Assembly: GCA_965200315.1 (NCBI GenBank)
Contig: OZ241362.1
Location: 384,001 to 448,000 of the forward strand
Length of the DNA: 64,000 nt
Reading direction: 5' to 3'
From: Candidatus Latescibacterota bacterium
GTDB taxonomy: Bacteria; Latescibacterota; UBA2968; UBA8231
Shown here piece after piece: positions 7,680-54,060 of this stretch (position 1 is its first letter; each line of letters opens with the position of its first letter). The position numbers and the translations under genes are program-made. The notes under the pieces were generated by a model. That model searched no databases, was not told where the DNA came from, and saw only the letters and a program-made list of their open reading frames with translations.

Positions 7680-9113
7680 ATGGCTCAATTGAAAGCGATC
7701 CGCCTGCGCTTAGACAAGCCTTTGACCGGGCCGTACGACCGCCTTTTGGGCCGCCCTGGTCCCGAAGTCATCTCACTGGCAGCGGGCGAAACCATGGCGA
7801 TCATCCGCGGTGCGCGGCTACTAAAAGCCATGCCCTTGTGGGAAAGCACGGACGCGTGTTATTACTCCAAAAAGACGGCTCCTGGGTGGGCCGCGGAAAA
7901 TTTTAGAGATGTAGAGCAAGCCGAGCGTTGGGCAGAGAAAGGGCTGGTGAATTCGCTGGCTGTGCCCATAGGCTACTTCAAGCTGCCCAATGCCGCTTGG
8001 ATCGGCGCGCTGGCAGCCGAACTGACGCCGTGGACGGCCCAAGCCGTTGAAGCATGGCGGACAGGGATTAAGCGGGACATTTGGCTGACCGTACTGAGGG
8101 TATATGGCTGTGCGCCCGTGCAACCGAAATTTTTGCGGAAAACGGGCGCGGACCCGCTGCGCGTTAGGCCCTTTGAGATTGAGCAATTGCAGCCGGTCGT
8201 TTTAGAAAGAGATATCGAGCGGCGGATGGAACAGATACAAGAGGCTGTAGCACGGCATGCTCGCGGTGGCGGTACCCGTGTGGGCGCAAGCTACGACGGC
8301 CAGGCTTTCACTGCGGAGACTGGCTACAGTGCCGATGAGCTAAAGGGCTGGATTGACCAATTGCAGCGCAAGCAGCAGCTCATTCTATACGGCCCGCCCG
8401 GCACCGGCAAGACGTACTTGGCCAAGTGCTTGGCTCGTTATCTGGTGGATGGCGGCGGTTTCAGCGAACTCGTGCAATTCCACGCCTCGTACGCGTATGA
8501 GGATTTCGTCCAAGGAATTCGGCCGCAGGTCGTGGATGGCGCACTGCACTACGAATTGACCGCCGGGCACTTTCTGCGGTTTTGCGCCAAGGCGCGCCAA
8601 GCCGCAGAAAAGCCCTGCGTGCTGATCATCGACGAAATCAACCGCGCTAACCTCGCGCGCGTTTTTGGCGAGTTAATGTACCTGTTGGAATACCGCGATC
8701 GCCCGATCACGCTGGCCGCTGGCGGCTCCGAGTTTTCGCTCCCGGCCAACGTCTATCTCATCGGCACCATGAACACGGCCGACCGGTCGATCGCCTTGGT
8801 CGATCAAGCCATGCGGCGGCGATTCAGCTTTGTCCGCCTGCGCCCCAACTACCAGCTTTTGGCAAATTATCTCGAGAATAGGAGCTTACCGCCGGATAAA
8901 TTGGTCGCGCTACTAAAAGAAGTAAATCAATCCATTGGGGATGAGGACTGCGAACTGGGTATTTCTTTCTTCATGGTCGCCGATGTCGCAACGGCGCTGG
9001 CGCATATTTGGCAAGGCGAGGTCGAGCCGTATCTGGAGGAGGTGTTTTTCGATCGCCCGGACCAGATGGCGCGCTTTCGCTGGTCCAAAGTCGCCGAGCG
9101 TTTGCAGGATTAG
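7680..9113 (+). CDS. mcrB: McrB-family AAA+ GTPase with a non-canonical N-terminal domain
   Basis: GPPGTGKT, QFHASYAYEDFVQG, IIDEINRANL, GTMNTADRS, MRRRF. Confidence 0.92.
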   Translation: MAQLKAIRLRLDKPLTGPYDRLLGRPGPEVISLAAGETMAIIRGARLLKAMPLWESTDACYYSKKTAPGWAAENFRDVEQAERWAEKGLVNSLAVPIGYFKLPNAAWIGALAAELTPWTAQAVEAWRTGIKRDIWLTVLRVYGCAPVQPKFLRKTGADPLRVRPFEIEQLQPVVLERDIERRMEQIQEAVARHARGGGTRVGASYDGQAFTAETGYSADELKGWIDQLQRKQQLILYGPPGTGKTYLAKCLARYLVDGGGFSELVQFHASYAYEDFVQGIRPQVVDGALHYELTAGHFLRFCAKARQAAEKPCVLIIDEINRANLARVFGELMYLLEYRDRPITLAAGGSEFSLPANVYLIGTMNTADRSIALVDQAMRRRFSFVRLRPNYQLLANYLENRSLPPDKLVALLKEVNQSIGDEDCELGISFFMVADVATALAHIWQGEVEPYLEEVFFDRPDQMARFRWSKVAERLQD

Positions 9114-9115
9114 GC

Positions 9116-10276
9116 GTGCGACGCTACGCGCTGATCGAAGAGAAAGTAGCCGCGATTCCGGCGGCCGAGCTTGCGGTCGAACAGGCCCTACACCTGCACA
9201 CCCAATATGCAAAAGAGTTGGAGTTCGGCTTCCCTAGCCCGCTCAATGGCCAGTGTTATCAACTCAGATCGCGGGGGTATGTCGGCGTGGTGCCATTGGG
9301 CGCGGATGCCGCCTTGGAAATCAATCCCAAAATCCGCTGCTCACTGCTCATGTCCATGCTGGAGTACGCCTATCAGTTGCCCAAGGTAAGCGAATACAAG
9401 GCCCCAGCTACTATGGGGGATATTTACGAGTTTTGGGCCGAGGTACTCGCACGCAAAGTCTTGCAACGGGTGCGGCGCGGGCTGTTTTGGGATTACCAAA
9501 CCCGCGAAGGCCCCAGTCGGTGGGTGCGGGGGCGCATGTACCCCGAGCGCAGTGCCTTGGGCGTTCATCCCTACTGTCGGTTTGCCGAGCACACGCCCGA
9601 TATCATCGACAACCGCATCTTGGCCAACGCGCTGCATGGCCTGCGGCGCTTTGCCTTTCGCCGCGAAAGCGTTCAGCAAATGGTCGGTCGGGCTTGGTGG
9701 GCACTGAGCGAGCTAAATTACCGCCACATTCGCCCCGCCGATTGTCTCGGCGTAGTGTACCACCAACTAAACGAGGACTACCGACCGATGCATGCCCTGT
9801 GCTATCCCTTGCTCCAACAGCGCAGTCCGGCTTGGGGAGTAGGGGCCGAGGAAGGGCCGGCGTACTTGTTGCACATGCCGACCTTATTCGAGCGGTTTTG
9901 CACGGCGTTTATCGACCACAAGCTCAATCACAGGGTGGAACTAAAAGCCCAGTACCACACGCGACTCAAGGGAACAGAGCGGCTTTCCTTTCGCTTGGAC
10001 ATGGCCCTGTTTTCAGCGGCAACCGGGCAGCCGCTGGCGGTAGTTGATGCAAAATACAAGGCCGCTGGTCCCGTAGAAAGCGATGTGCAGCAGGTGGTTG
10101 CCTATGCGGTGCAACTAGGTACGCGCCGGGCCTTTTTGCTCTATCCCAGCCGCGATATAAGCGAGCAGTTCGAGGTCGGCCCGGTGGCCGTGCAAGCACT
10201 TGGGTACGATCTCGACGCCGAAGATCTAGAGGAAGCGGGACGGCGCGTGATTCGCAAAATAGAAAACAGCATATAA
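9116..10276 (+). CDS. mcrC: McrC-family PD-(D/E)xK nuclease subunit
   Basis: GTG 2 nt after the mcrB stop; YVGVV, INPKI, MPTLFERF, RLD...VVDAKYK, DVQQVVAY, LLYP. Confidence 0.88.
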   Translation: MRRYALIEEKVAAIPAAELAVEQALHLHTQYAKELEFGFPSPLNGQCYQLRSRGYVGVVPLGADAALEINPKIRCSLLMSMLEYAYQLPKVSEYKAPATMGDIYEFWAEVLARKVLQRVRRGLFWDYQTREGPSRWVRGRMYPERSALGVHPYCRFAEHTPDIIDNRILANALHGLRRFAFRRESVQQMVGRAWWALSELNYRHIRPADCLGVVYHQLNEDYRPMHALCYPLLQQRSPAWGVGAEEGPAYLLHMPTLFERFCTAFIDHKLNHRVELKAQYHTRLKGTERLSFRLDMALFSAATGQPLAVVDAKYKAAGPVESDVQQVVAYAVQLGTRRAFLLYPSRDISEQFEVGPVAVQALGYDLDAEDLEEAGRRVIRKIENSI

Positions 10277-10292
10277 AAATTAATATGTAAAC
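10266..10292 (+). other. dif-like site 1: ACAGCATATAA-AAATTA-ATATGTAAAC
   Basis: dif-type arm/6 bp/arm layout; the TAA of the left arm is the mcrC stop codon; the most degenerate of the six. Confidence 0.6.
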
Positions 10293-27546: not shown

Positions 27547-27571
27547 GTCCTATAACATGTTATATGTAAAA
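27545..27571 (+). other. dif-like site 2: AAGTCCTATAA-CATGTT-ATATGTAAAA
   Basis: Fills the whole gap between the small ORF stop and the apt ATG; close to Firmicutes-type dif arms. Confidence 0.75.
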
Positions 27572-31381: not shown

Positions 31382-32315
31382 ACTGACCATTAAGAATTTG
31401 CTCGCCACCTACGGGCAGCAACTGCGGTTGAAGCTGATCGCCGGTGTTGAGGGCCTACAGCGGACCATCAACAACAGCGACATCCATCGCCCCGGCTTGG
31501 CTCTAACGGGTTTTGTCGAGCTGTTCACTTTGGATCAGGTACAGCTCTTGGGCAATACAGAAGCAGAATACTTGTGCACCTTGTCCGCATACGAGCGGCG
31601 GCAGGCGCTCAAAATCATATATCAATTTGATATTCCATGCGTGGTTTGGACCGGTAGGGGATGCATGTTTCCCGAGTTGCGACAGCTCGCCGATGAGTGC
31701 GCAGTACCACTGCTGGAGTCTGGATTCAACACGGCCGAATTCACTCATCTCATCCGTTTTTACCTCGACGAGGTGTTAGCACCCCAAGTGTCCATGCACG
31801 GGACGCTGGTCGATATCTCTGGGGTAGGGTTGCTTTTTCGCGGTCGCAGTGGTATTGGCAAAAGCGAGGTCGCCTTGGATTTGGTCGAGCGCGGACATCG
31901 GTTGGTGGCCGACGATGTGGTCATCATCAATCGCAAACCCCAAGGCATTTTGGTAGGCTGTAGCTCGGAAATGCTCCAAGACCACATCGAGATTCGCGGC
32001 ATCGGCATCCTAGATGTAAAAAAGATGTTTGGTGCGTGGAGGACTCGGCGGCAGAAGCGGGTGGAGGTAGTGGTTAACCTCGTCGATTGGGACGAAAAAT
32101 ACGCCTACGAACGACTTGGCCTTGAAGACAATAAGGTGGTAATTCTCGGTGTCGAGGTGCCTGAGGTCTTCATCCCGCTGTTTCCCGGCAAAAATATCAC
32201 GGTACTCGCCGAGACCATAGCGATAAGTTATCTCTTGCGCTTGGACGGTGAGTATGCGGCACGGACATTTAGCGATCGGCTCCAAGAGCGGATTAAGGCG
32301 GGCAAAAAACCATGA
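31374..32315 (+). CDS. hprK: HPr kinase/phosphorylase
   Basis: IHRPGLAL, GRSGIGKSE, HRLVADD, IEIRGIGI. Confidence 0.96.
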   Translation: MSELTIKNLLATYGQQLRLKLIAGVEGLQRTINNSDIHRPGLALTGFVELFTLDQVQLLGNTEAEYLCTLSAYERRQALKIIYQFDIPCVVWTGRGCMFPELRQLADECAVPLLESGFNTAEFTHLIRFYLDEVLAPQVSMHGTLVDISGVGLLFRGRSGIGKSEVALDLVERGHRLVADDVVIINRKPQGILVGCSSEMLQDHIEIRGIGILDVKKMFGAWRTRRQKRVEVVVNLVDWDEKYAYERLGLEDNKVVILGVEVPEVFIPLFPGKNITVLAETIAISYLLRLDGEYAARTFSDRLQERIKAGKKP

Positions 32316-33115
32316 TGACGCTTGGCGTGGCAGGCCATGATCACGAGATCGTCGCCCATCGGGATGCCTTGCGGGGTTGCCGCGATATCCAGCTTGTACA
32401 CGAAGCCGACTGTGCCGCAGTCTTGGAACAAAAAATAGATGGGCTGGTGTTGTTGCACGTGGAAGATAAATCGCATTGGATCGGCGCGGCCCTAGCAGCC
32501 GGTCTGCACGTTATGGCGACCCATCCGGTACAGGTGTCGAGCCCTTCCAAGGTGTGTGTGCTGTCCTTGGGGAGGCATACGCACTTTTGCTCGGCTTTAG
32601 CCGCTCGACGGGGCGTAGCGCATTATTCACTGGAACTTTCTTTTAATTCGGCTTTATTCGATCCTATTGATCGCGAGACGATCTGCAACCAAGCGGCCTT
32701 GGACGTATGCGACCTGTTGCTGAGTACGTGGGGGCCGGTAGATGTGCTGTACAGCAGGATGCGCAACTTCTTTCATCTTGGTCGGATGGAGGACGTGTCG
32801 GTCGCGCTGCTGAGGATGCGCAACGGCGTCGAAGGCTCGGTTGCGATCCTAGACTTTCCGGCTGTGGCTCCGACGTTGTGCATCCGCGCATACGCACAAG
32901 ACGCAATAATTGATACTTCTTGGCCTTGGGTATGGGAAGCGGGCGATCTGGCGGCGTACTATCGCAATTTTGTCGCCTGCATCCAAGGGCGCGCCCAGCC
33001 ATTGTTGCGTTTAGAGCAGGTGGCCGCAAGCTATCGTCTTTTGGAATGGATGCGCACATCGGCGAGACAAGATGTTATTTTGAACCGCAAGCAAGTAAAA
33101 CAATATGTCTTATAA
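32312..33115 (+). CDS. Divergent Gfo/Idh/MocA-like oxidoreductase-fold protein
   Basis: AALAAGLHV, EDVSVALLRMRNGVEG, FVACIQG; lacks the usual GxG and EKP motifs. Confidence 0.55.
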   Translation: MMTLGVAGHDHEIVAHRDALRGCRDIQLVHEADCAAVLEQKIDGLVLLHVEDKSHWIGAALAAGLHVMATHPVQVSSPSKVCVLSLGRHTHFCSALAARRGVAHYSLELSFNSALFDPIDRETICNQAALDVCDLLLSTWGPVDVLYSRMRNFFHLGRMEDVSVALLRMRNGVEGSVAILDFPAVAPTLCIRAYAQDAIIDTSWPWVWEAGDLAAYYRNFVACIQGRAQPLLRLEQVAASYRLLEWMRTSARQDVILNRKQVKQYVL

Positions 33116-33131
33116 AATTTTTTATGTAAAT
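33105..33131 (+). other. dif-like site 3: ATGTCTTATAA-AATTTT-TTATGTAAAT
   Basis: The left-arm TAA is the upstream gene's stop codon; identical to the reverse complement of 36629-36655. Confidence 0.85.
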
Positions 33132-33136
33132 GAAAA

Positions 33137-33661
33137 ATGAAAGAACAATCAACGCAACCCACGTACTTCGCTCTTGCGCTAGCATTCTTCTTATTGGCGA
33201 TCGTGTTGCTGTTCAACATGCTGGGTCCTATGGCCGTGCCGGTTACTAGGGAACAGTTCGATCAGATACAAGAGGCCAATCTCATCGAGTATCTGATCGT
33301 GCAACCCCAAGGATTTACTTGGCAGCTTGCAAGAGCCGTCCGTGTCCAAGGTGCCAACGGCGAGACGGTAGCCAAGCGGATTGAGCTAGCCGAGCCGGAC
33401 CCAACCGTGGCCGAAGATTGGCGACAAAAGGGGGGCGCAGTGCGTCAAGAGCAAGATACCTCGTGGTGGGGAGGTGCGGTCTTCATGGCCTTGTTGCTCG
33501 GCGTGGGGGGATGGCACATCTGGTCCCAAATACGACTGGATATCAAAGGGGGAGGAGGGCCACGCCGCCGCTTGCGCGACTTGGAAGCCGCGCTCAAACA
33601 AGGCAAAATTACCCAAGCCGAATTCCGGCAGCAGGCCGAACGGCTCTGGGCCGAGTTGTGA
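33137..33661 (+). CDS. Two-TM membrane protein (FtsH N-terminus-like layout) with a SHOCT-like tail
   Basis: Two hydrophobic helices; C-terminal LKQGKITQAEF. Confidence 0.65.
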   Translation: MKEQSTQPTYFALALAFFLLAIVLLFNMLGPMAVPVTREQFDQIQEANLIEYLIVQPQGFTWQLARAVRVQGANGETVAKRIELAEPDPTVAEDWRQKGGAVRQEQDTSWWGGAVFMALLLGVGGWHIWSQIRLDIKGGGGPRRRLRDLEAALKQGKITQAEFRQQAERLWAEL

Positions 33662-33667
33662 GGATAT

Positions 33668-35458
33668 ATGGCGAGTACTATTCGCGTTCTCGACGAAAGT
33701 CTCATTGGAAAAATAGCCGCTGGCGAGGTGGTGGAACGGCCCGCTTCGGTCGTGAAGGAATTGGTCGAAAACTCGATTGATGCGGGGGCCACTAAAATCT
33801 GCGTGGAAATCAGGGCCGGTGGCAAGCAGTCGGTCGTCGTGACCGACGATGGCTCGGGCATGAACAGAGAGGATATCGCGCTGTGTGTATGCCGTCATGC
33901 CACGAGCAAAATGGCTTCAGTGGCCGATCTGTTTCGCATTCAGACGCTGGGGTTTCGCGGCGAAGCCTTAGCCAGCATTGGTGCGGTAGCGCACTTGGCT
34001 ATTGAATCGCGTACAGAGCAAGACGAAACCGGGACGCGCTTGGTTATAGAAGGCGGCATAGAGCGAGAGATGCACAGCATCGGCCGAGCGCGTGGTACGA
34101 CCATTGTGGTAAAGAACCTGTTTTTTAATACGCCAGCGCGGCGCAAGTTCCTCCGCTCGGTCAATGCGGAAGCTCGCCACGTGGCGCAGACCATCATCCA
34201 TCTAGCCGCTGGTTATCCGGCTCTTGGTTTTGAACTAGAGCACCAAGATCGCCAAGTATTGAACTACGCCCCGGCGTCTCGTCGGGAACGGGCGGCCGAG
34301 CTGTTGGGCATCCAGACTGCTCCAGCCGACGAGTTGTTGGATCTCGCCCACGAGGAGGAGGGCCTCAAAATCGAAGGGGTCTTAGCCGGTCCCGAACACT
34401 GCGGCCGGAGCAAGGGCAAGCAGTATCTCATCGTACAAGGACGGCCCATCTCTTCGCGGCTGATGGCTACCGCTGTACAGCGGTGCTTTGAAGGTTTACT
34501 ACCCGAAGGACATCATCCAGTATTCATGCTCTGGATCGATATGGATCCCAAGAAAATCGACGTCAATGTCCATCCGACGAAGCGGGAGATTCGCTTGTCC
34601 AACGAAGGGCAAGTCATCGCGGCTATTGAGAGCAGCGTCCGGCATACCTTGCGCCTGCCCGATGTCCGATCCTTCGTCTATACTGCGGCCCCAAGGCCGG
34701 ACAGCACACCTCGCTTCAGCGAGACCAGCAGTGCTGCGGGCGTCGAGCCGGTTTCGGTGCGCGTGGGCGAATCGGCGGCACCGGTATTGCAAAGATTGCC
34801 TACGCCCGAAGCGCCCGAGTCAGCAGTTCATGCAAACGACCAACTCAATATGGCCCTCGTCGCTCCAGCCTCAGTCAAAGTCGCTGTCGCCGAAGATGCT
34901 GCGATGTGGCAGATCCACAACCAGTACATCCTCGTCGAGGTAGCCGATGGATTGCTCTTTGTCGACCAGCAGGCGGCGCACGAACGCATCAACTACGATC
35001 GGGCCATGGCGCAAGTGGACGGCGCGGCCAGTGAGAGCCAGCAGTTGCTCTTTCCCATACAGCTAGAAATGGGCGCAGAAGATTTCGAGATCTTCAACCA
35101 AGTGCGAGATGATATTACCAAGCTAGGCTTTGTCGCGCGCGATTTTGGTGCGCGGACGGTGTTGGTGGAAGCTGTGCCCGCTGAATTAGATCGCTTTGGT
35201 GAAGGCAATGCTTTTTATCAGCTATTGAACGATGTGCGCGATGGCCAGCATTCGGGCCGCTCTTGGCGCGAAGCACTCGTCTTGGCTTATGCGCGCAAGG
35301 CGAGCATTAAGAAAGGGCAGAAACTGAACGCCGAGGAAATAGCGCACTTGATCAACGAATTGCTAAAGGCCGACTCACCGCACGTAAGCCCAACGGACAA
35401 GCCGATCATGGCGAGGATGAAGTTGAGCGATATGGAGCGTCTATTGCGGAAGTTCTAG
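33668..35458 (+). CDS. mutL: DNA mismatch repair protein MutL
   Basis: IAAGEVVERPASVVKELVENSIDAG, GFRGEALASI, DVNVHPTK. Confidence 0.97.
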   Translation: MASTIRVLDESLIGKIAAGEVVERPASVVKELVENSIDAGATKICVEIRAGGKQSVVVTDDGSGMNREDIALCVCRHATSKMASVADLFRIQTLGFRGEALASIGAVAHLAIESRTEQDETGTRLVIEGGIEREMHSIGRARGTTIVVKNLFFNTPARRKFLRSVNAEARHVAQTIIHLAAGYPALGFELEHQDRQVLNYAPASRRERAAELLGIQTAPADELLDLAHEEEGLKIEGVLAGPEHCGRSKGKQYLIVQGRPISSRLMATAVQRCFEGLLPEGHHPVFMLWIDMDPKKIDVNVHPTKREIRLSNEGQVIAAIESSVRHTLRLPDVRSFVYTAAPRPDSTPRFSETSSAAGVEPVSVRVGESAAPVLQRLPTPEAPESAVHANDQLNMALVAPASVKVAVAEDAAMWQIHNQYILVEVADGLLFVDQQAAHERINYDRAMAQVDGAASESQQLLFPIQLEMGAEDFEIFNQVRDDITKLGFVARDFGARTVLVEAVPAELDRFGEGNAFYQLLNDVRDGQHSGRSWREALVLAYARKASIKKGQKLNAEEIAHLINELLKADSPHVSPTDKPIMARMKLSDMERLLRKF

Positions 35459-35482
35459 TGTTTGGACACCTGATGATCAGGA

Positions 35483-35514
35483 ATACTAACGATAACAGGC
35501 ATTATCGTTAGTAT
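35483..35514. repeat. Perfect inverted repeat ATACTAACGATAA-CAGGCA-TTATCGTTAGTAT; likely tyrosine-recombinase core site
   Basis: 13-bp perfect arms with a 6-bp spacer, 120 bp upstream of a tyrosine recombinase. Confidence 0.85.
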
Positions 35515-35634
35515 AACAAGTGTGCTACACAGCGGGCAAAATGCTGCGATGTTCGCTATATTTTTTCTTAGCCACTGTTAAGAACATCCCGGATATTTAG
35601 TCATCAGACCTTTAGCCCCTGTGAGCATATTCAG

Positions 35635-36609
35635 ATGAGCCGCGCACTCACTCCAGTCGTCCGCCAACTAACGCCAACACCAGCGTTGATGGCGGACGAT
35701 CCTCTGGAACAATTTCTCAGCGGTCAGCTCAGCGAGCGTACGCGACGTGCGTATTACGCCGATCTCCAGCATTTCTTTTTATCCATCGGCCTAGAACTAA
35801 ATGAAGTGTCGCTCGCTGTCTTGCAGTCAATCACCTTTGAGCACGTGGTCGCCTTTAGAAACCAGCTCGCCAGCGAAGGCTACAAGCGCAGCAGCATCAA
35901 CAGAAAGTTGTCCAGCCTGAAGTCGTTGTTCAAGATGTTGGTCGCCTTGGGCCACATTGAGAAGAATCCCGCCGACTCTACGTTGGTGCGCGGCTACAAG
36001 GTTGATGAAACGCTGGCTGGCAAAGCACTTTCCAATCAGGTGCTGAATAAGATTCAGCAAGCCATTGCCGAGGAAAAAGACGATTTGGTTCGTACGCGCG
36101 ATGCGGCCATGTTTCATTTGCTCACATTCGGCGGGCTGCGCCGCTCTGAAGTGGCAGGCGTCGCTTGGGAAGATATATCCTTGGAGGGCGTCTTTTACAT
36201 CCTGCACCTGCCCCAGACTAAATCGGGCGTGGTGCAGGAGATCAAACTGCAAAACATCGTCTTACATCATCTCGAACTGTACAAACAACAACTACAGGTG
36301 GCGGGCTTGCCGGCGACCGGCAAAGTCTTTATCAGCTTGTCGCGCAACCAATCTCGCGGCCGGCCGCTGACCGACCAATCGGTAAATCACATCGTCAAGA
36401 AATACGCCCTGCGCGCAGGCCTCCCCCAAAACGTCACTGCACACATGTTCCGCCACACATGCTGCACCCTAGCGATTGAAGGCGGAGCCAAGCCCCAGCA
36501 GGTGCAAGCCCATTTGCGCCACAAGGATCTAAAGACGACGATGCGCTACTACGAAAACCGCGAGAGGCTGCTCGATAATGCGTCTGATTATATTAGGATT
36601 GGTAGTTGA
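35635..36609 (+). CDS. Tyrosine recombinase (Xer-like, SAM-like plus catalytic domain)
   Basis: TRRAY..DL, SINRKLSSLKS, GLRRSE, TKSG, HMFRH, LRH, TTMRY: complete R-K-H-R-H-Y set. Confidence 0.95.
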   Translation: MSRALTPVVRQLTPTPALMADDPLEQFLSGQLSERTRRAYYADLQHFFLSIGLELNEVSLAVLQSITFEHVVAFRNQLASEGYKRSSINRKLSSLKSLFKMLVALGHIEKNPADSTLVRGYKVDETLAGKALSNQVLNKIQQAIAEEKDDLVRTRDAAMFHLLTFGGLRRSEVAGVAWEDISLEGVFYILHLPQTKSGVVQEIKLQNIVLHHLELYKQQLQVAGLPATGKVFISLSRNQSRGRPLTDQSVNHIVKKYALRAGLPQNVTAHMFRHTCCTLAIEGGAKPQQVQAHLRHKDLKTTMRYYENRERLLDNASDYIRIGS

Positions 36610-36628
36610 GTGTTTTTTGTTGTGTTTT

Positions 36629-36655
36629 ATTTACATAAAAAATTTTATAAGACAT
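36629..36655 (-). other. dif-like site 4: ATGTCTTATAA-AATTTT-TTATGTAAAT (minus strand)
   Basis: 27/27 identical inverted copy of site 3; lies between the convergent recombinase and leuS stops. Confidence 0.85.
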
Positions 36656-36681
36656 TATATTTTTCAGACTTCACTGAGACC

Positions 36682-39564
36682 TTACACCACGATATTAACA
36701 ATTTTATCCGGCACCCATATAAAGCGCTTTATTGCCGTTTCATCGGCCACGTATTTCTGGATGCTCTCCATATCGAGTACCAAGGACTTGATTGCGTCCT
36801 CGGCGGTGCTGACGGGCACTTTGACTTGTCCGCGCATTTTGCCGTTGACCTGAATGGGGACTACGATCAGGTCCTCAGCGGCCTTGGCTGCATCCCAGTC
36901 AGGCCAACTCTGGCGACTAAGCTCTCCCCTCCCCAAGCCCGCCAGTTCCCAGATCTCCTCGGCAATATGCGGAGCAAAGGGCACCAGCAGGATCAAAAAC
37001 GGCTTAGCAACCGCCTGCGGTACTTCGTCTAAAGACACCAACTGGTTGTTTAACTCGATCAAGGCGGCAATCGCCGTATTAAACCGCAACCCCTCTATGT
37101 CCTCAGCTACCTTTTGGATGGTTTGGTGCAGCTTTCTTTCTAGGTCAGGTCCCAACACCGCGCTCGCCCCTATCTTCACGCGCCGGTCCGAATCGACAAA
37201 GTTGCGCCAAACGCGCTGCAAGAAGCGCTGCATCCCGCGAATGCCTTCCATGCTCCACGGAGCACTCGCTTCGAGTGGCCCCATGTACATTTCGTATAGC
37301 CGCAGGGTATCCACGCCAAATTCCTCGCCAATTTCTTCGGGCGGCAACCCATTTTTGTAGCGCTTGCCCATTTTGCCGAAAGACTGGCGTAGCACCTTCC
37401 CCGTCCCCTTTTCAACAGGCTCCCCATCGCGGAATTCGACCTCGCGGATGTCGATATACACACCGCGCTCGTCCTGAAAGGCATCCGCGGTCATCATGCC
37501 TTGGTTGAACAACTTCTTAAACGGCTCAGGCGTGGATACGTGGCCCAAGTCGTAGAGGGCCTTGTGCCAAAACCGAGCGTAGAGCAAGTGCAATACCGCG
37601 TGTTCAGCACCGCCGATGTAGAGATCAACGGGCATGAAGTAGCTCTCTTTGGCCGGGTCGCAGAAGGCTTCTTCGTTGTGCGGATCGATAAAGCGGAGAT
37701 AATACCAGCAAGAACCGGCCCATTGGGGCATGACGTTGAGTTCGCGCCGGCAGGCCACTCCGTCAATTTCCACTGTCGTCCACTCTGTTCCGGCCCGGTG
37801 CAACGGCGGTGCAACGGGTTGGGTGGGATCGTCAGAGGTTTCCGGTCTGAAATCCTCTAAGTCCGGCAGCGCCACCGGAGGCACCACCGCGACGGAATAT
37901 CCATCGGGGTGCGTGGCCAGTGGAAAGGGCTCGCCCCAATAGCGCTGCCGAGCAAAGGTCCAGTCGCGCAATTTGTAGTTTACCGCGGCTTGGCCACGCC
38001 CTTGGGAGACTAGTACGGCGACGATCTGAGCTTTGGCCGCGCCCGTTGCCAAGCCGTTAATGGCGTATGGATTATCTCCGCCCCGTACTGGAGAATTGAT
38101 CGCAGTTCCCTCCCCGGCATACCACTCCTCGGCCCTTCCCTCCCCTCCAGTAACTACCTTCACAATGTCTACGTTATAGGTGGCGGCAAAGGCGAAATCG
38201 CGCTCGTCGTGGGCCGGCACCGCCATAATGGCACCCGCGCCATAGTCCATGCTGACGTAGTCGGCGACGAAAATGGGAATTTTTTGTCCGTTGACTGGAT
38301 TGCGGGCATAGATGCCGGAGAAAATGCCCGTTTTTTCCTTGGTTTCATCCGCTGTGGAGACGGCAACCTGAGCTACGTATTGGGCTACCGCTTCCCGGAT
38401 GGATTCCCCGCCTCCCTTCCACTGCTCCGGCGTTCCGTCGGGCCAGACGCTGGGCACTAAGTAGGCTTCCCCGGCGGGATCCACCAGCGGATGCTGAGGG
38501 GCAATCGCCATAAAGGTCGCTCCGAAAAGCGTGTCGGGCCGGGTCGTGAACACGGGCAATTGCCCAGCGACCGCGTCGCTTTGCGGGTCAAGGACATCGA
38601 AGCACACTTCAGCTCCTTCGCTGCGGCCGATCCAGTTGCGCTGCATCCGTTTGATAGGCTCTGGCCAATCGAGACGAAAGGGCGCGCCGTTGCGGTCCTC
38701 CAGCTCAAAGTCCAAGTCCTCTAAGAGCCGCTCGGCGTAAGCTGTTATGCGCATCGTCCATTGTCGCAGTGGTTTGCGATACACGGGAAAATCGCCCCGC
38801 TCGCTGCGGCCTTCGCTGTTTACCTCCTCGTTGGCCAATACAGTGCCCAAGCCCGGGCACCAGTTGACGACGGCCTCTTGCTGGTACGCTAGTCGGTAGT
38901 TGTTTAACACAGCTTGCTGCTGGGCCGTGGTTAGTGCAGACCAAGCTGCATCGGTGCTGAGCACTTGGCAATCTGCGGCCGACAGGGCCCTGCCAGCCGC
39001 AAATTGGGCCTCTAAGTCGGCGATGGGCTTGGCTCGTCCCTTTATTTGGCGTCCATTGCCGTCTTCCCAGAGCTCGTCTGCGTCGAAATAGCTGTCGAAT
39101 AGCTGGGCAAAAATCCACTGAGTCCAGCGGTAGTATGACTCCCGCGACGTGACCACTTCGCGGCCCCAATCAAACGAGAGTCCAAGAAACTGCAATTGGC
39201 TGCGCATCGCAGCGATATTCTGCTCTGTTACAGCCGCTGGATGGATGTTGTGTTCGATCGCGTATTGCTCGGCCGGCAATCCGAAACTGTCGAACCCCAT
39301 CGGATGCAGGACGTTAAATCCCTGCATCCTTTTGTAGCGGCTGTAGATGTCGCTGGCGATATACCCTTTGGGATGGCCGATGTGTAGCCCGGCGCCGCTG
39401 GGATAGGGAAACATATCGAGGATGTAGCACTTGGGTTTGCGGTCGTCGAAACCAACCTCCCCCGGCCCCAGCGTTTGATAGGTTTTCTCCTGCTCCCAAT
39501 GGGACCGCCATTTGGTTTCGATGTCTTGGAAATTGTATTGGTCTTTTTTTTGTTTTGTTGACAT
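36682..39564 (-). CDS. leuS: Leucyl-tRNA synthetase
   Basis: MFPYPSGAGLHIGH, FTTRPDT, GGAEHAVLHLLY, KMGK. Confidence 0.98.
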   Translation of the reverse strand: MSTKQKKDQYNFQDIETKWRSHWEQEKTYQTLGPGEVGFDDRKPKCYILDMFPYPSGAGLHIGHPKGYIASDIYSRYKRMQGFNVLHPMGFDSFGLPAEQYAIEHNIHPAAVTEQNIAAMRSQLQFLGLSFDWGREVVTSRESYYRWTQWIFAQLFDSYFDADELWEDGNGRQIKGRAKPIADLEAQFAAGRALSAADCQVLSTDAAWSALTTAQQQAVLNNYRLAYQQEAVVNWCPGLGTVLANEEVNSEGRSERGDFPVYRKPLRQWTMRITAYAERLLEDLDFELEDRNGAPFRLDWPEPIKRMQRNWIGRSEGAEVCFDVLDPQSDAVAGQLPVFTTRPDTLFGATFMAIAPQHPLVDPAGEAYLVPSVWPDGTPEQWKGGGESIREAVAQYVAQVAVSTADETKEKTGIFSGIYARNPVNGQKIPIFVADYVSMDYGAGAIMAVPAHDERDFAFAATYNVDIVKVVTGGEGRAEEWYAGEGTAINSPVRGGDNPYAINGLATGAAKAQIVAVLVSQGRGQAAVNYKLRDWTFARQRYWGEPFPLATHPDGYSVAVVPPVALPDLEDFRPETSDDPTQPVAPPLHRAGTEWTTVEIDGVACRRELNVMPQWAGSCWYYLRFIDPHNEEAFCDPAKESYFMPVDLYIGGAEHAVLHLLYARFWHKALYDLGHVSTPEPFKKLFNQGMMTADAFQDERGVYIDIREVEFRDGEPVEKGTGKVLRQSFGKMGKRYKNGLPPEEIGEEFGVDTLRLYEMYMGPLEASAPWSMEGIRGMQRFLQRVWRNFVDSDRRVKIGASAVLGPDLERKLHQTIQKVAEDIEGLRFNTAIAALIELNNQLVSLDEVPQAVAKPFLILLVPFAPHIAEEIWELAGLGRGELSRQSWPDWDAAKAAEDLIVVPIQVNGKMRGQVKVPVSTAEDAIKSLVLDMESIQKYVADETAIKRFIWVPDKIVNIVV

Positions 39565-39583
39565 AATTATCCTTATAAGACAC
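39557..39583 (-). other. dif-like site 5: GTGTCTTATAA-GGATAA-TTATGTCAAC
   Basis: Begins immediately after the asnS stop; the leuS ATG lies inside the right arm. Confidence 0.8.
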
Positions 39584-53090: not shown

Positions 53091-54041
53091 TCAACTCGCC
53101 CCACTATCCCATCGATGCTCCCACTCGCCGACGATGCGCTCGACGACGCCCGCCTTTCCCCATACGTCGAGGTCCAACTCGCGCAGGCGGCGGTCGCGGC
53201 GGCACCACGTTGTTTGCCGTTTGGCCAAATGTCGGGTGCGCTGTTTGGTCTGTTCGATGGCTTCCTGCCAAGGGCAATGCCCGGCCAGTGCGCTGCACAT
53301 TTCGAGATAGCCCAAAGTCCCCAAGGCGCTGTCGCTTGGATCGTAGCCCATTTCGCACAAGGAGCGGACTTCCTCGACCCATCCCCGCTCGACCATCTGT
53401 TCGACTCGCTGGTCAATTCGCTCGTAGAGCCGGCTGCGCGCCATGGTCAGACTGATCATTTGCGGCTGACTCACAAGGGGCTGTCCCTTGCGCTCCCGCC
53501 AGAGCTTGCTGAGCGTGCCCTTTCCGGCCAGTCCCACCTCCAATGCCCGTAGGATTCGCTGCGCATCACTCGGCGGCAAACGCGCTTGCGCGACCGGATC
53601 GCGACGACCCAATTCCTCGTACAGGGATGCAAGCCCCTCGCCGTGCAGGCGATGTTGCAATTCGGCGCGGATTGGCGCGTATTCAGTTTCATCCTCAAAG
53701 CATCCGTCTAAAGCACTCTGCCAGTACAAACCCGTCCCTCCTACCAAGACGGGCAGGCACCCTCTGTTCCAGATCTGCTCAATGACGCGCCGCGCGGCTC
53801 GGGCATACGCTCCGGCGCTGTAGTTTTCCTCGGGACCAAGTACGTCAAGCAGGTGATGGGGACATTGGTTCTGCTGTTCAGCGGTTGGCTTGGCCGTGCC
53901 AATATCCATGTAGCGGTAGATTTGCCGCGAGTCGGCCGAGATGATTTCCACTTTGGGCAAGTGCCGGGCTACTTCGAGGGCTATTTCTGTTTTGCCGGTG
54001 GCGGTGGGTCCGGTGATTAGGAGGAGAGGTTTGGTTGACAT
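53091..54041 (-). CDS. miaA: tRNA dimethylallyltransferase
   Basis: GPTATGKT, SADSRQIYRYMDIGTAKP, VGGTGLY, AKRQTTW; likely ATG at 54041 (MSTKP). Confidence 0.96.
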   Translation of the reverse strand: MSTKPLLLITGPTATGKTEIALEVARHLPKVEIISADSRQIYRYMDIGTAKPTAEQQNQCPHHLLDVLGPEENYSAGAYARAARRVIEQIWNRGCLPVLVGGTGLYWQSALDGCFEDETEYAPIRAELQHRLHGEGLASLYEELGRRDPVAQARLPPSDAQRILRALEVGLAGKGTLSKLWRERKGQPLVSQPQMISLTMARSRLYERIDQRVEQMVERGWVEEVRSLCEMGYDPSDSALGTLGYLEMCSALAGHCPWQEAIEQTKQRTRHLAKRQTTWCRRDRRLRELDLDVWGKAGVVERIVGEWEHRWDSGAS

Positions 54042-54060
54042 ATTAAAAATTATAGGACTA
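54034..54060 (-). other. dif-like site 6: TAGTCCTATAA-TTTTTA-ATATGTCAAC
   Basis: Starts with the rqcH TAG stop; the probable miaA ATG lies inside the right arm. Confidence 0.8.

What the first reader, a model, noticed from the sequence alone, without database searches (positions are those of the whole stretch)
33105..36655. Identical inverted 27-bp dif-like pair brackets mutL and the recombinase: candidate invertible segment
Seen: 33105-33131 and the reverse complement of 36629-36655 match at 27/27 including the AATTTT spacer. They enclose a membrane-protein gene, mutL, the palindromic site and the recombinase (~3.5 kb). Established: tyrosine recombinases need matching spacers, and inverted sites give inversion. 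Inference: flipping would move mutL from the end of the prs-hprK gene run to downstream of leuS, so it is co-oriented with an upstream gene run in either state. This could tune mismatch repair (a phase-variable mutator) or simply reorient the central site.
Basis: partly seen in the sequence, partly recalled or inferred. Interest (0 to 1): 0.8.

Follow-up and report, generated by a model that had tools for sequence, protein, structure and literature searches.

The report
Flippable terminus segment between dif-like sites
Two identical, oppositely oriented copies of a chromosome-unlinking (dif-type) site sit where replication ends in an uncultured Latescibacterota bacterium, and related species show that the 3.5 kb between them has flipped repeatedly, but it does not look like an on/off switch for the repair gene mutL.

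Summary
The 27/27 inverted pair is real and occurs only at these two places in the 5.36-Mb genome. It lies exactly at the GC-skew switch, opposite dnaA, so at the replication terminus. It is the innermost pair of six dif-like sites whose TATGTMAA arms all face the centre.

In 28 genomes of the genus the block (membrane gene, mutL, palindrome, recombinase) lies between fixed flanks in either orientation. 18 match this window and 10 are flipped. At least 5-6 independent flips are needed. The two sites were made alike independently in 6 of 23 genomes.

So the segment is invertible on an evolutionary scale. Contigs of 4 runs show one orientation only. The two states are mirror images for mutL, and other genera bracket the recombinase without mutL. 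A mutator switch is therefore unsupported.

XerC-like and XerD genes lie elsewhere, and sister families have one canonical dif. The local recombinase probably serves the central palindrome.

This scan reported the same layout before on other Latescibacterota DNA.

The parts
10268..10291 (+). Outermost left dif-like site (S6, AGCATATAA-AAATTA-ATATGTAAA). It has 3 mismatches to the genus consensus and lies between the 3' end of an McrBC-family gene and a convergent DctM transporter gene.
27547..27570 (+). Dif-like site S4 (GTCCTATAA-CATGTT-ATATGTAAA). It fills the whole gap between an upstream stop codon and the ATG of apt.
33105..33131 (+). Left copy of the identical inverted pair (S1). The outer arm ATGTCTTATAA contains the stop codon of orf267, the spacer is AATTTT, and the inner arm is TTATGTAAAT.
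33137..33661 (+). It has no family above cut-off and travels with the segment.
33668..35458 (+). mutL, full length, a passenger of the invertible segment.
35484..35513 (.). Central palindromic Xer-type site, TACTAACGATAA-CAGGCA-TTATCGTTAGTA. It is single copy in the genome and conserved upstream of the recombinase gene across the family. It is the candidate cognate site of the local recombinase.
35635..36609 (+). Divergent Xer-like tyrosine recombinase of 324 aa. RHR-H-Y-type motifs are readable (GLRRSE, HMFRHT, LRH, MRY). It scores far below the XerC and XerD equivalog cut-offs.
36629..36655 (-). Right copy of the identical inverted pair (S2), 20 bp after the recombinase stop codon and 26 bp from the leuS stop codon.
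39558..39581 (-). Dif-like site S3 (GTCTTATAA-GGATAA-TTATGTCAA). It has the same arms as S2, the same orientation and a different spacer. It fills the asnS-leuS gap, and the leuS ATG lies inside its inner arm.
54035..54058 (-). Dif-like site S5 (GTCCTATAA-TTTTTA-ATATGTCAA). The miaA ATG lies inside its inner arm, and the stop codon of the upstream NFACT-family gene overlaps its outer arm.

Best explanation
S1 and S2 are the innermost, oppositely oriented pair of a mirror-symmetric set of XerCD-type dif-like sites centred on the replication terminus.

Inferred steps:
- XerD binds the conserved inner arm (W)TATGTAAA, and XerC binds the outer arm GTCYTATAA.
- The two sites are inverted, and in this genome they have the same AATTTT spacer. 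Synapsis and strand exchange between them therefore turns the 3.5 kb between them around.

Shown by comparison: this has happened repeatedly in the genus, and the two sites also convert one another.

The flip is rare, seen as differences fixed between species rather than a visible mixture. It is close to neutral. In either state the membrane gene and mutL follow a co-oriented operon behind the same half-site, and the recombinase gene converges on the other flank.

The local, highly conserved Xer-like recombinase more probably works on the unique central palindrome, as a second dedicated dimer-resolution-type site. The segment is thus a flippable terminus core, not a mutL switch.
For: Terminus:
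- Cumulative GC skew peaks at 418 kb of the genome.
- The skew sign changes between 416-420 kb and 420-424 kb.
- dnaA lies at 2.96 Mb, roughly opposite.
- The flanking genes converge on this point.

Site family:
- 5 sites match GTCYTATAA-N6-WTATGTMAA with 0 mismatches, none with 1-2, and all lie within 27 kb of the skew peak. A sixth has 3 mismatches.
- Three + sites lie to the left and three - sites to the right.
- In 21 loci of the genus, 75 of 75 sites at 2 mismatches or fewer point the same arm at the core.

XerCD type:
- The genome encodes XerD (347 bits, cut-off 329.6) and a XerC-like protein (316.5 bits; NF001399 290 against 279) elsewhere.
- Families f2 and f4, which gave only 24-32% matches to the local recombinase in the 16 non-family genomes searched, mostly show one YATAA-N6-TTATGTAAA site per genome: 22 of 26 (f2) and 12 of 12 (f4). 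The 3 f3 genomes show 1-3. In 12 fetched loci the site reads nnCGGTATAA-GATACA-TTATGTAAACT or a near variant.
- In G000 only S1 and S2 fit that pattern.

Inversion:
- The whole block is reversed between fixed flanks. The count is 15 A and 6 B in 21 loci, and 18 A and 10 B in 28.
- The ML tree of the flanks needs 6 changes, at least 5 of them forced. Three fully supported sister pairs differ.
- Both states occur in single-contig assemblies.

Site interaction:
- The spacer and inner arm stay with the segment in A and B genomes alike.
- The spacers of the pair are identical in 6 of 23 genomes, in six separate lineages with four different spacers, while their sisters differ.

Not about mutL:
- Other genera carry dif-like(+), palindrome, rec, dif-like(-) between mutL and leuS.
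- G015-G017 also bracket orf267.

Palindrome as the local enzyme's site:
- It is single copy in this genome.
- It was found in 38 of 61 family genomes at 2 mismatches or fewer.
- It is also carried by circular phage-like elements of about 10.4 kb in which 9 ORFs showed no tyrosine recombinase.
Against: - No binding or catalysis was tested, so the assignment of XerCD to these sites rests on sequence likeness only.
- In most genomes (17 of 23) the two spacers differ, which should hinder a complete tyrosine-recombinase exchange.
- In the closest opposite pair (G014 and L056) a C/T variant inside the outer arm appears to travel with the segment. That puts the exchange point at or outside the outer edge of the site, not at an arm-spacer boundary, unless the variant arose twice.
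- Contigs of 4 of 4 runs show only one orientation and no joints.
- The local recombinase always sits inside the bracket next to one site, which is the classical invertase layout.
- Kin are not independent, and the family-level link between the recombinase and multiple sites is a single transition.
Confidence: 0.6

Rival explanations
1. The local Xer-like recombinase is itself the invertase. It binds S1 and S2 and flips its own segment, as in classical invertase-within-segment systems. The palindrome upstream of its gene is its operator.
For: - The gene lies inside the inverted pair in every genome of the family examined, 14-90 bp from one site.
- It is as conserved as asnS (91-95% amino-acid identity in 17 close genomes, against 80-88% for mutL).
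- Catalytic motifs are present.
- Multiple or paired dif-like sites were seen only in the family that has this gene.
Against: - The arms of S1/S2 match the canonical single dif of sister families that lack this enzyme and have only XerC/XerD-type paralogues.
- A separate, unique and conserved palindrome with different arms and the same ATAA-N6-TTAT core sits by its gene.
- That palindrome also occurs on integrase-less phage-like circles, which is what a cognate recombination site would look like.
Confidence: 0.2
2. The flips are homology-driven. RecA recombination or replication template switching acts between two short AT-rich inverted repeats, and the flips become fixed because an inversion centred on the terminus costs nothing. 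The sites' real function lies elsewhere.
For: - Flips appear only as differences between species, and contigs of 4 runs show one state.
- The repeat reaches 39 nt at 90% here and 28-30 identical bases in L071 and L061.
- The outer-arm variant travelling with the segment in G014 and L056 fits an exchange outside the core.
- Gene conversion is typical of inverted repeats.
Against: - The identity tracts are only about 24-40 bp. In most genomes uninterrupted identity between the two copies is about 12 bp, which is short for RecA by recalled MEPS values.
- No other rearrangement was seen in the 20-kb neighbourhoods of 21 genomes.
- The architecture, with conserved arms and a free 6-bp spacer, is that of a recombinase site.
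Confidence: 0.15
3. This is a phase-variable mutator switch. Orientation sets mutL expression, so that subpopulations differ in mutation rate.
For: - mutL lies inside the segment in this genus.
- The sites here are identical, so the segment should be competent to flip.
Against: - The two states are mirror images for mutL.
- mutL is outside the bracket in other genera.
- Only one orientation appears in contigs of 4 runs.
- No promoter signal above the shuffles was found (4 found against a mean of 2.8).
Confidence: 0.05

Closest known systems
pXerC/D (pdif) site pairs of Acinetobacter plasmids
   Same: Oppositely oriented XerC/D-type sites bracket a gene block that inverts reversibly. The active pairs reported there share identical 6-bp spacers (PMC9947245, abstract and passages).
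   Different: Those sites are on plasmids, flank accessory or resistance modules that move between replicons, and both forms coexist in clonal cultures. Here the pair is chromosomal, at the terminus, syntenic across a bacterial family, and brackets a Xer-like gene. Coexistence of both forms was not seen in contigs.
Two opposed putative dif sites in the terminus inverted repeat of Lactobacillus delbrueckii ssp. bulgaricus
   Same: It is a natural circular chromosome with two dif-type sites in opposite orientation at the terminus. The authors note that recombination between them would invert rather than resolve (PMC5345009, passages).
   Different: There the sites are duplicated as part of 38-76 kb inverted repeats thought to be relics of a rescue event. 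Here only 27-40 bp are repeated, the arrangement is old and conserved, and it comes with further oriented sites and a third recombinase.
Single-recombinase Xer modules with the gene beside its site (XerS/difSL, XerH/difH, archaeal XerA/dif)
   Same: A Xer-family gene lies next to a unique dif-type site at the terminus. The review and primary paper were seen in a search listing only (PMC5357621, PMC1914069). A passage on xerA operons is in PMC11840125.
   Different: The genome also keeps XerD and a XerC-like protein. The local enzyme scores far below the XerS and XerA cut-offs (81 against 267 bits, and 109 against 220). The module is nested in inverted XerCD-type sites.
XDS, the dif-like XerD-binding sites in the Bacillus subtilis terminus region that unload Smc-ScpAB
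   Same: Several extra dif-like sites cluster around dif in the terminus region. This is known to me only through citing passages in PMC11840125 and PMC11894783. The original paper is not held.
   Different: Binding and any SMC effect are untested here. These sites keep both arms, are strictly oriented towards the centre, and are squeezed into gene junctions. I could not check whether the B. subtilis XDS sites are oriented.
Tyrosine-recombinase invertible switches (for example fimS with FimB/FimE)
   Same: Short inverted repeats bracket a segment with a tyrosine recombinase gene at hand (general knowledge, recalled).
   Different: Those switches carry or face a promoter, so orientation changes expression, and populations are mixed. 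Here the two states are symmetric and no mixture was seen.

Membership tests
XerCD/dif chromosome dimer-resolution site | About 28 bp: two roughly 11-bp imperfectly palindromic arms around a 6-8 bp spacer | tested here: met
   ATGTCTTATAA-AATTTT-TTATGTAAAT. The inner arm equals that of the single conserved site of sister families, TTATGTAAAC/T.
XerCD/dif chromosome dimer-resolution site | Located at the replication terminus (skew switch) | tested here: met
XerCD/dif chromosome dimer-resolution site | One copy per chromosome | tested here: not met
   Two identical inverted copies plus four related oriented sites.
XerCD/dif chromosome dimer-resolution site | XerC and XerD encoded by the genome | tested here: met
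   XerD is above the equivalog cut-off. The XerC-like protein is just below it but above the subfamily cut-off.
XerCD/dif chromosome dimer-resolution site | Resolves chromosome dimers and is bound by XerC/XerD | not testable with these tools
Invertible phase-variation switch | Inverted repeats bracket a segment, with a recombinase nearby | tested here: met
Invertible phase-variation switch | Both orientations coexist within one population | tested here: inconclusive
   Contigs of 4 of 4 runs show one orientation and no joints. Contigs drop rare variants, and no raw reads were on offer.
Invertible phase-variation switch | Orientation changes which gene is joined to a promoter | tested here: not met
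   Both states place the same genes behind the same half-site and a co-oriented operon. The promoter scan was not above the shuffles.
pdif / dif modules | Module flanked by oppositely oriented XerC/D-type sites | tested here: met
pdif / dif modules | Plasmid-borne, with the module found in different replicon contexts | tested here: not met
   It is chromosomal with the same flanks in all 28 genomes.
Single-recombinase Xer module (XerS/XerH/XerA type) | Recombinase gene adjacent to its unique site at the terminus | tested here: met
   The palindrome lies about 120 bp upstream of the gene and is single copy.
Single-recombinase Xer module (XerS/XerH/XerA type) | It replaces XerC/XerD, and the protein belongs to one of the named families | tested here: not met
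   XerD and a XerC-like protein are present. The XerS and XerA models score far below cut-off. The best PDB match is E. coli XerD at 65.6 bits.
XDS-type terminus sites | Extra dif-like sites clustered in the terminus region | tested here: met
   S3-S6 lie within 25 kb of the centre and nowhere else in the genome.
XDS-type terminus sites | XerD binding without recombination, and unloading of SMC | not testable with these tools
   This would need ChIP or Hi-C in a host system.

The most novel reading that the evidence does not exclude
This Latescibacterota family may run a two-layer terminus machine. The inner layer is a dedicated, highly conserved third Xer-like recombinase with its own unique palindromic dif, which integrase-less phage-like circles also carry. 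The outer layer is a mirror-symmetric, inward-pointing array of XerCD-type sites that no longer serve mainly in dimer resolution. Instead they would act as oriented barriers or unloading points for FtsK, SMC or replication forks. Flipping of the core would be the visible side effect of the innermost barrier pair.
Probability: 0.3. Interest if true: 0.8.

Novelty: new variant of a known kind. Interest (0 to 1): 0.68.

Why it matters
Circular chromosomes are expected to carry one dif site. Two opposed copies are expected to cause trouble, because they invert DNA instead of resolving dimers.

Here a whole bacterial family has kept an opposed pair for a long time, around a third Xer-like recombinase and inside a strictly oriented array of further dif-like sites. 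Nature has run the inversion experiment at least five or six times in one genus.

This gives a natural system for three questions:
- What prevents or permits Xer recombination between non-sister sites.
- What spacer identity contributes to that.
- Whether dif-like sites have oriented, non-recombinational roles at the terminus outside Firmicutes.

It also removes an attractive but unsupported idea, a flip-switch for mismatch repair.

Tried and rejected
1. Promoter or translation-start reading of the sites. Four of the six abut or contain a start codon. However, S6 lies between convergent genes. S2 faces no gene start in this orientation. The motif occurs nowhere else in the genome. The promoter scan of 32800-36900 gave 4 hits against 2.8 expected. 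Rejected as the main explanation.

2. Minority orientation in sequencing runs. Only Logan contigs were on offer. Contigs of X1, X2 and X18 span 31500-38500 in one piece, and short X20 contigs cross both sites. There were no joints. This gives no verdict on rare flips.

3. G024 and G018 as recombinase-less controls. They also gave no mutL or leuS match, so the region is simply not assembled there and they are no test.

I scanned the genome with the IUPAC consensus instead.

5. A search for KOPS-like polar 8-mers around the terminus found only the repeat of a large CRISPR array. I dropped it.

6. Exchange-point mapping. The spacer and inner arm follow the segment, but one outer-arm variant also does. 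The resolution is too low to separate site-specific from homology-driven exchange.

7. The original XDS paper (PMC7897262) is not held.

8. No supplements were consulted.

9. Literature. No paper holds Latescibacter*, XerD and dif together. The phrases 'inverted dif sites', 'dif sites in inverted' and 'oppositely oriented dif' occur in none of the 15 papers listed out of 36 hits. Only 'two dif sites' occurs.
Full report
OBSERVATION

Positions 33105-33131 read ATGTCTTATAAAATTTTTTATGTAAAT, and 36629-36655 is the exact reverse complement, 27 of 27. With up to 3 mismatches these are the only two matches in the window, and none of 100 dinucleotide shuffles gave any. They are also the only two in the 5,359,245-base single-contig genome. 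The repeat runs on to 39 nt at 90%.

Between the two copies lie four features:
- a 174-aa ORF with no family above cut-off (33137-33661);
- mutL (33668-35458);
- a palindrome, TACTAACGATAA-CAGGCA-TTATCGTTAGTA (35484-35513);
- a 324-aa tyrosine recombinase (35635-36609).

To the left, on the + strand, are apt, a TPR protein, prs, a phosphoesterase, rsgA, hprK and a 267-aa ORF. To the right, on the - strand, are leuS, asnS and pnp.

WHERE IT IS

Cumulative GC skew peaks at about 418 kb of the genome, which is window position about 34,000. The local skew is +0.071 in 416-420 kb and -0.048 in 420-424 kb. dnaA lies at 2.96 Mb, about 47% and 53% of the circle away on the two sides. The genes converge on this point. 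This is the replication terminus.

Titles of related records name Candidatus Latescibacterota, with some labelled Gemmatimonadota. Runs that hold the stretch are labelled sponge metagenome.

THE PAIR BELONGS TO A LARGER, ORIENTED SET OF SITES

A genome-wide scan with GTCYTATAA-N6-WTATGTMAA gave five sites with 0 mismatches, none with 1 or 2, four with 3 and 39 with 4. All five perfect sites lie within 27 kb of the skew peak, and one of the four 3-mismatch sites lies 24.6 kb to the left.

| Side | Strand | Window positions | Distance from centre |
|---|---|---|---|
| left | + | 10268, 27547, 33107 | -24.6, -7.4, -1.8 kb |
| right | - | 36630, 39558, 54035 | +1.7, +4.7, +19.1 kb |

So the TATGTMAA arm always faces the centre. 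In 21 loci of the genus, 75 of 75 sites at 2 mismatches or fewer obey the same rule. The motif was found in 22 of 24 other genomes of the genus and in 0 of 16 genomes of other families of the class.

The sites are squeezed into gene junctions:
- S4 is the whole gap before apt.
- The stop codon of orf267 lies in the outer arm of S1.
- The ATG of leuS and the ATG of miaA lie inside the inner arms of S3 and S5. There the arm reads TATGTCAA instead of TATGTAAA, so ATG-TAA becomes ATG-TCA.
- S6 lies between convergent genes.

The S6 position, together with the absence of the motif elsewhere in the genome, argues against a plain promoter or translation-start motif.

WHAT KIND OF SITE

Other families of the class gave only 24-32% matches to the local recombinase in the 16 non-family genomes searched. 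The pattern YATAA-N6-TTATGTAAA was found in 22 of 26 f2 genomes and 12 of 12 f4 genomes, once in each. The three f3 genomes show 1-3 matches. Twelve fetched examples read nnCGGTATAA-GATACA-TTATGTAAACT or a near variant. That is an ordinary single dif.

In this genome only S1 and S2 fit the pattern. The genome encodes XerD (TIGR02225, 347 bits, cut-off 329.6) and a XerC-like protein (TIGR02224, 316.5 bits, cut-off 335; NF001399, 290 against 279) far from the terminus. The local enzyme scores only 129 and 118 bits on those models, and its best solved relative is E. coli XerD at 65.6 bits.

I therefore read the six sites as derived XerCD-type sites. Which arm binds XerD is recalled from E. coli and B. 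subtilis dif. It is not a result of any call.

THE SEGMENT DOES INVERT

tblastn maps of 20-kb loci from 20 congeners and this window show the whole block (membrane gene, mutL, palindrome, recombinase) reversed between unchanged flanks. State A is as here, with the membrane gene next to orf267, and it occurs in 15 loci. State B occurs in 6.

I then added seven further genomes. One further locus was too short to score, and loci that duplicated handles were dropped on contig length and coordinates. The count becomes 18 A and 10 B.

An ML tree of hprK, orf267, leuS and asnS (28 rows) needs 6 changes of state, at least 5 of them forced by starred branches. Label shuffles average 8.4 changes. Three sister pairs with 100/100 support differ: G002 against G013, G014 against L056, and G021 against G006 plus G012. 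The 21-row tree needed 5 changes.

Both states occur in single-contig assemblies, and the repeat is far shorter than long reads or the assemblers' k-mers. Misassembly is therefore not a credible cause.

THE TWO SITES INTERACT

- Across A and B genomes alike, the spacer and inner arm stay with their inner neighbour. An example is ATAATT-TTATGTAAA on the membrane-gene side of G002, G006 and G012 (B) and of G013 and G021 (A). The sequence beyond the outer arm stays with the flank.
- In 6 of 23 genomes with both sites read, the pair has identical spacers. These are G000, G007, G022, L056, L061 and L071. They sit in six separate lineages, carry four different spacers, and have non-identical sisters. 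This means repeated gene conversion.
- Against a clean arm-spacer exchange point, a C/T variant at position 4 of the outer arm goes with the segment in G014 and L056.
- G009 has lost the leuS-side site, and in G001 it has a 7-bp spacer.

NOT A mutL DEVICE

In other genera of the family (recombinase 58-70% identical) the order is mutL, dif-like(+), palindrome, recombinase, dif-like(-), leuS. The bracket there holds the recombinase gene only. One locus, L079, has that small module reversed relative to mutL. In G015-G017 the bracket also takes in orf267. What is constant is an opposed pair around the palindrome and the recombinase gene.

In state B the membrane gene and mutL lie downstream of leuS on the same strand, behind the same half-site. 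The two states are thus mirror images for mutL. Contigs of X1, X2 (19 differences) and X18 span 31500-38500 in state A. Short X20 contigs cross both sites in state A. No joints were reported. Contigs cannot show a rare minority.

THE CENTRAL PALINDROME

ACTAWCGATAA-N6-TTATMRTTAGT is single copy in this genome. It lies upstream of the recombinase gene throughout the genus (20 of 21 loci shown) and in other genera. It was found in 38 of 61 family genomes at 2 mismatches or fewer.

Its 6-bp centre occurs in both orientations. In the genus, CAGGCA appears in 17 loci and TGCCTG in 3 (G007, G015, G017), while G016 has TTCTTG and none was printed for G001. TGACTG and CAGTCA both appear in other genera.

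Extra copies exist in a few genomes. In G113, two contigs of about 22 kb are each a roughly 10.4-kb unit assembled about twice. The unit encodes capsid, prohead protease, portal and a lysozyme, and carries one palindrome. Among 9 ORFs of 100 aa or more, no tyrosine recombinase was found, and blastp with the local enzyme gave nothing.

That is what a site exploited for a host recombinase looks like. I therefore assign the palindrome to the local enzyme, as an inference. The enzyme is under strong constraint (91-95% identity in 17 close genomes, against 80-88% for mutL).

MECHANISM

Most likely (0.6): XerCD-type recombination between the opposed innermost sites flips the core. The flip is rare and nearly neutral. 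The local enzyme serves the palindrome.

Rivals:
- The local enzyme is the invertase (0.2).
- Homology-driven exchange between the short AT-rich repeats (0.15).
- A mutator switch (0.05).

Shown: the terminus location, the site family and its polarity, the recurrent inversion and the conversion. Inferred: who binds what, and the chemistry.

COMPARISON WITH WHAT IS KNOWN

- Closest in behaviour are the opposed pXerC/D pairs of Acinetobacter plasmids, which invert modules reversibly when their spacers match (PMC9947245, abstract and passages).
- Closest in place are the two opposed putative dif sites inside the large terminus repeats of L. delbrueckii ssp. bulgaricus (PMC5345009, passages).
- The gene-beside-site layout recalls XerS/difSL and XerH/difH (search listing only).
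- The outlying sites recall the B. subtilis XDS sites (citing passages only).

No paper in the library holds Latescibacter*, XerD and dif together.

Earlier AI notes of this scan describe the same cassette on a congener (e1-4370939) and on another genus (e1-4528764). They also describe inward-facing half-sites around terminus Xer genes in other phyla. My inversion count was made independently of those notes and agrees with them.

- XerD and a XerC-like protein are present.
- Sister families carry a single canonical dif.
- The six-site array is unique in the genome.
- The central palindrome has its own distribution, including on phage-like circles.

VERDICT

- The invertible-segment reading is supported on the evolutionary scale.
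- The mutator reading is not supported.
- It is a new variant of a known kind.

Noticed in passing
window 35497-35502, and loci L041, L052, L054, L082, L083, L089, L094, L095: The 6-bp centre of the conserved palindrome occurs in both orientations relative to the recombinase gene: CAGGCA against TGCCTG, and TGACTG against CAGTCA. The arms stay palindromic, with some paired arm changes (AACG/CGTT, ACCG/CGGT, CCCG/CGGG). This could be loop flipping by hairpin template switching, or a sign that the site's orientation is free. It remains unexplained.
   Followed up: partly
L124 (G113:C9) and L125 (G113:C12): These are circular phage-like elements of about 10.4 kb, assembled about twice over. They encode capsid, prohead protease, portal and a GH108 lysozyme, and carry one copy of the palindromic Xer-type site. 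No tyrosine recombinase was found among 9 ORFs. They are candidate elements that exploit the host's terminus recombinase.
   Followed up: partly
L127 and L128 (G045), and G114:C1:1960158, 2709038, 2709196: Further copies of the palindromic site lie away from the terminus locus. In G045 they sit beside IS110-, IS481- and Mutator-type transposase genes and a reverse transcriptase gene. In G114 there are three identical copies, two of them 158 bp apart and inverted.
   Followed up: partly
window 39562-39564 and 54039-54041: The start codons of leuS and miaA lie inside the inner arms of dif-like sites. Both proteins begin M-S-T-K (ATG TCA AC.). The arm's usual TAA is TCA exactly where it is read as a codon.
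   Followed up: partly
L052, L053, L054 (G015-G017) and L079-L106: The position of the partner site differs between lineages. It is after mutL in other genera, before the membrane gene in most of this genus, and before orf267 in G015-G017. The bracket is therefore about 1.3-1.6, 3.5 or 4.5-4.8 kb.
   Followed up: partly
L042 (G009) 8060-8120, and L035 (G001) 9960-10100: G009 has no site between leuS and the recombinase gene, so the pair is broken there. In G001 that site has a 7-bp spacer.
   Followed up: no
genome G000:C1, first 250 kb (outside the window): A very large CRISPR array. A 13-letter core of a 37-nt repeat occurs 246 times, all on one strand.
   Followed up: no
window 9008-10276: An McrBC-family restriction component gene ends inside the outermost left dif-like site.
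   Followed up: no
window 33132 and 33661: The related strain in run X2 differs at the base directly after S1 (G to T) and has 2 extra letters after 33661, between the membrane-gene stop codon and mutL. S1 and S2 themselves are unchanged.
   Followed up: no
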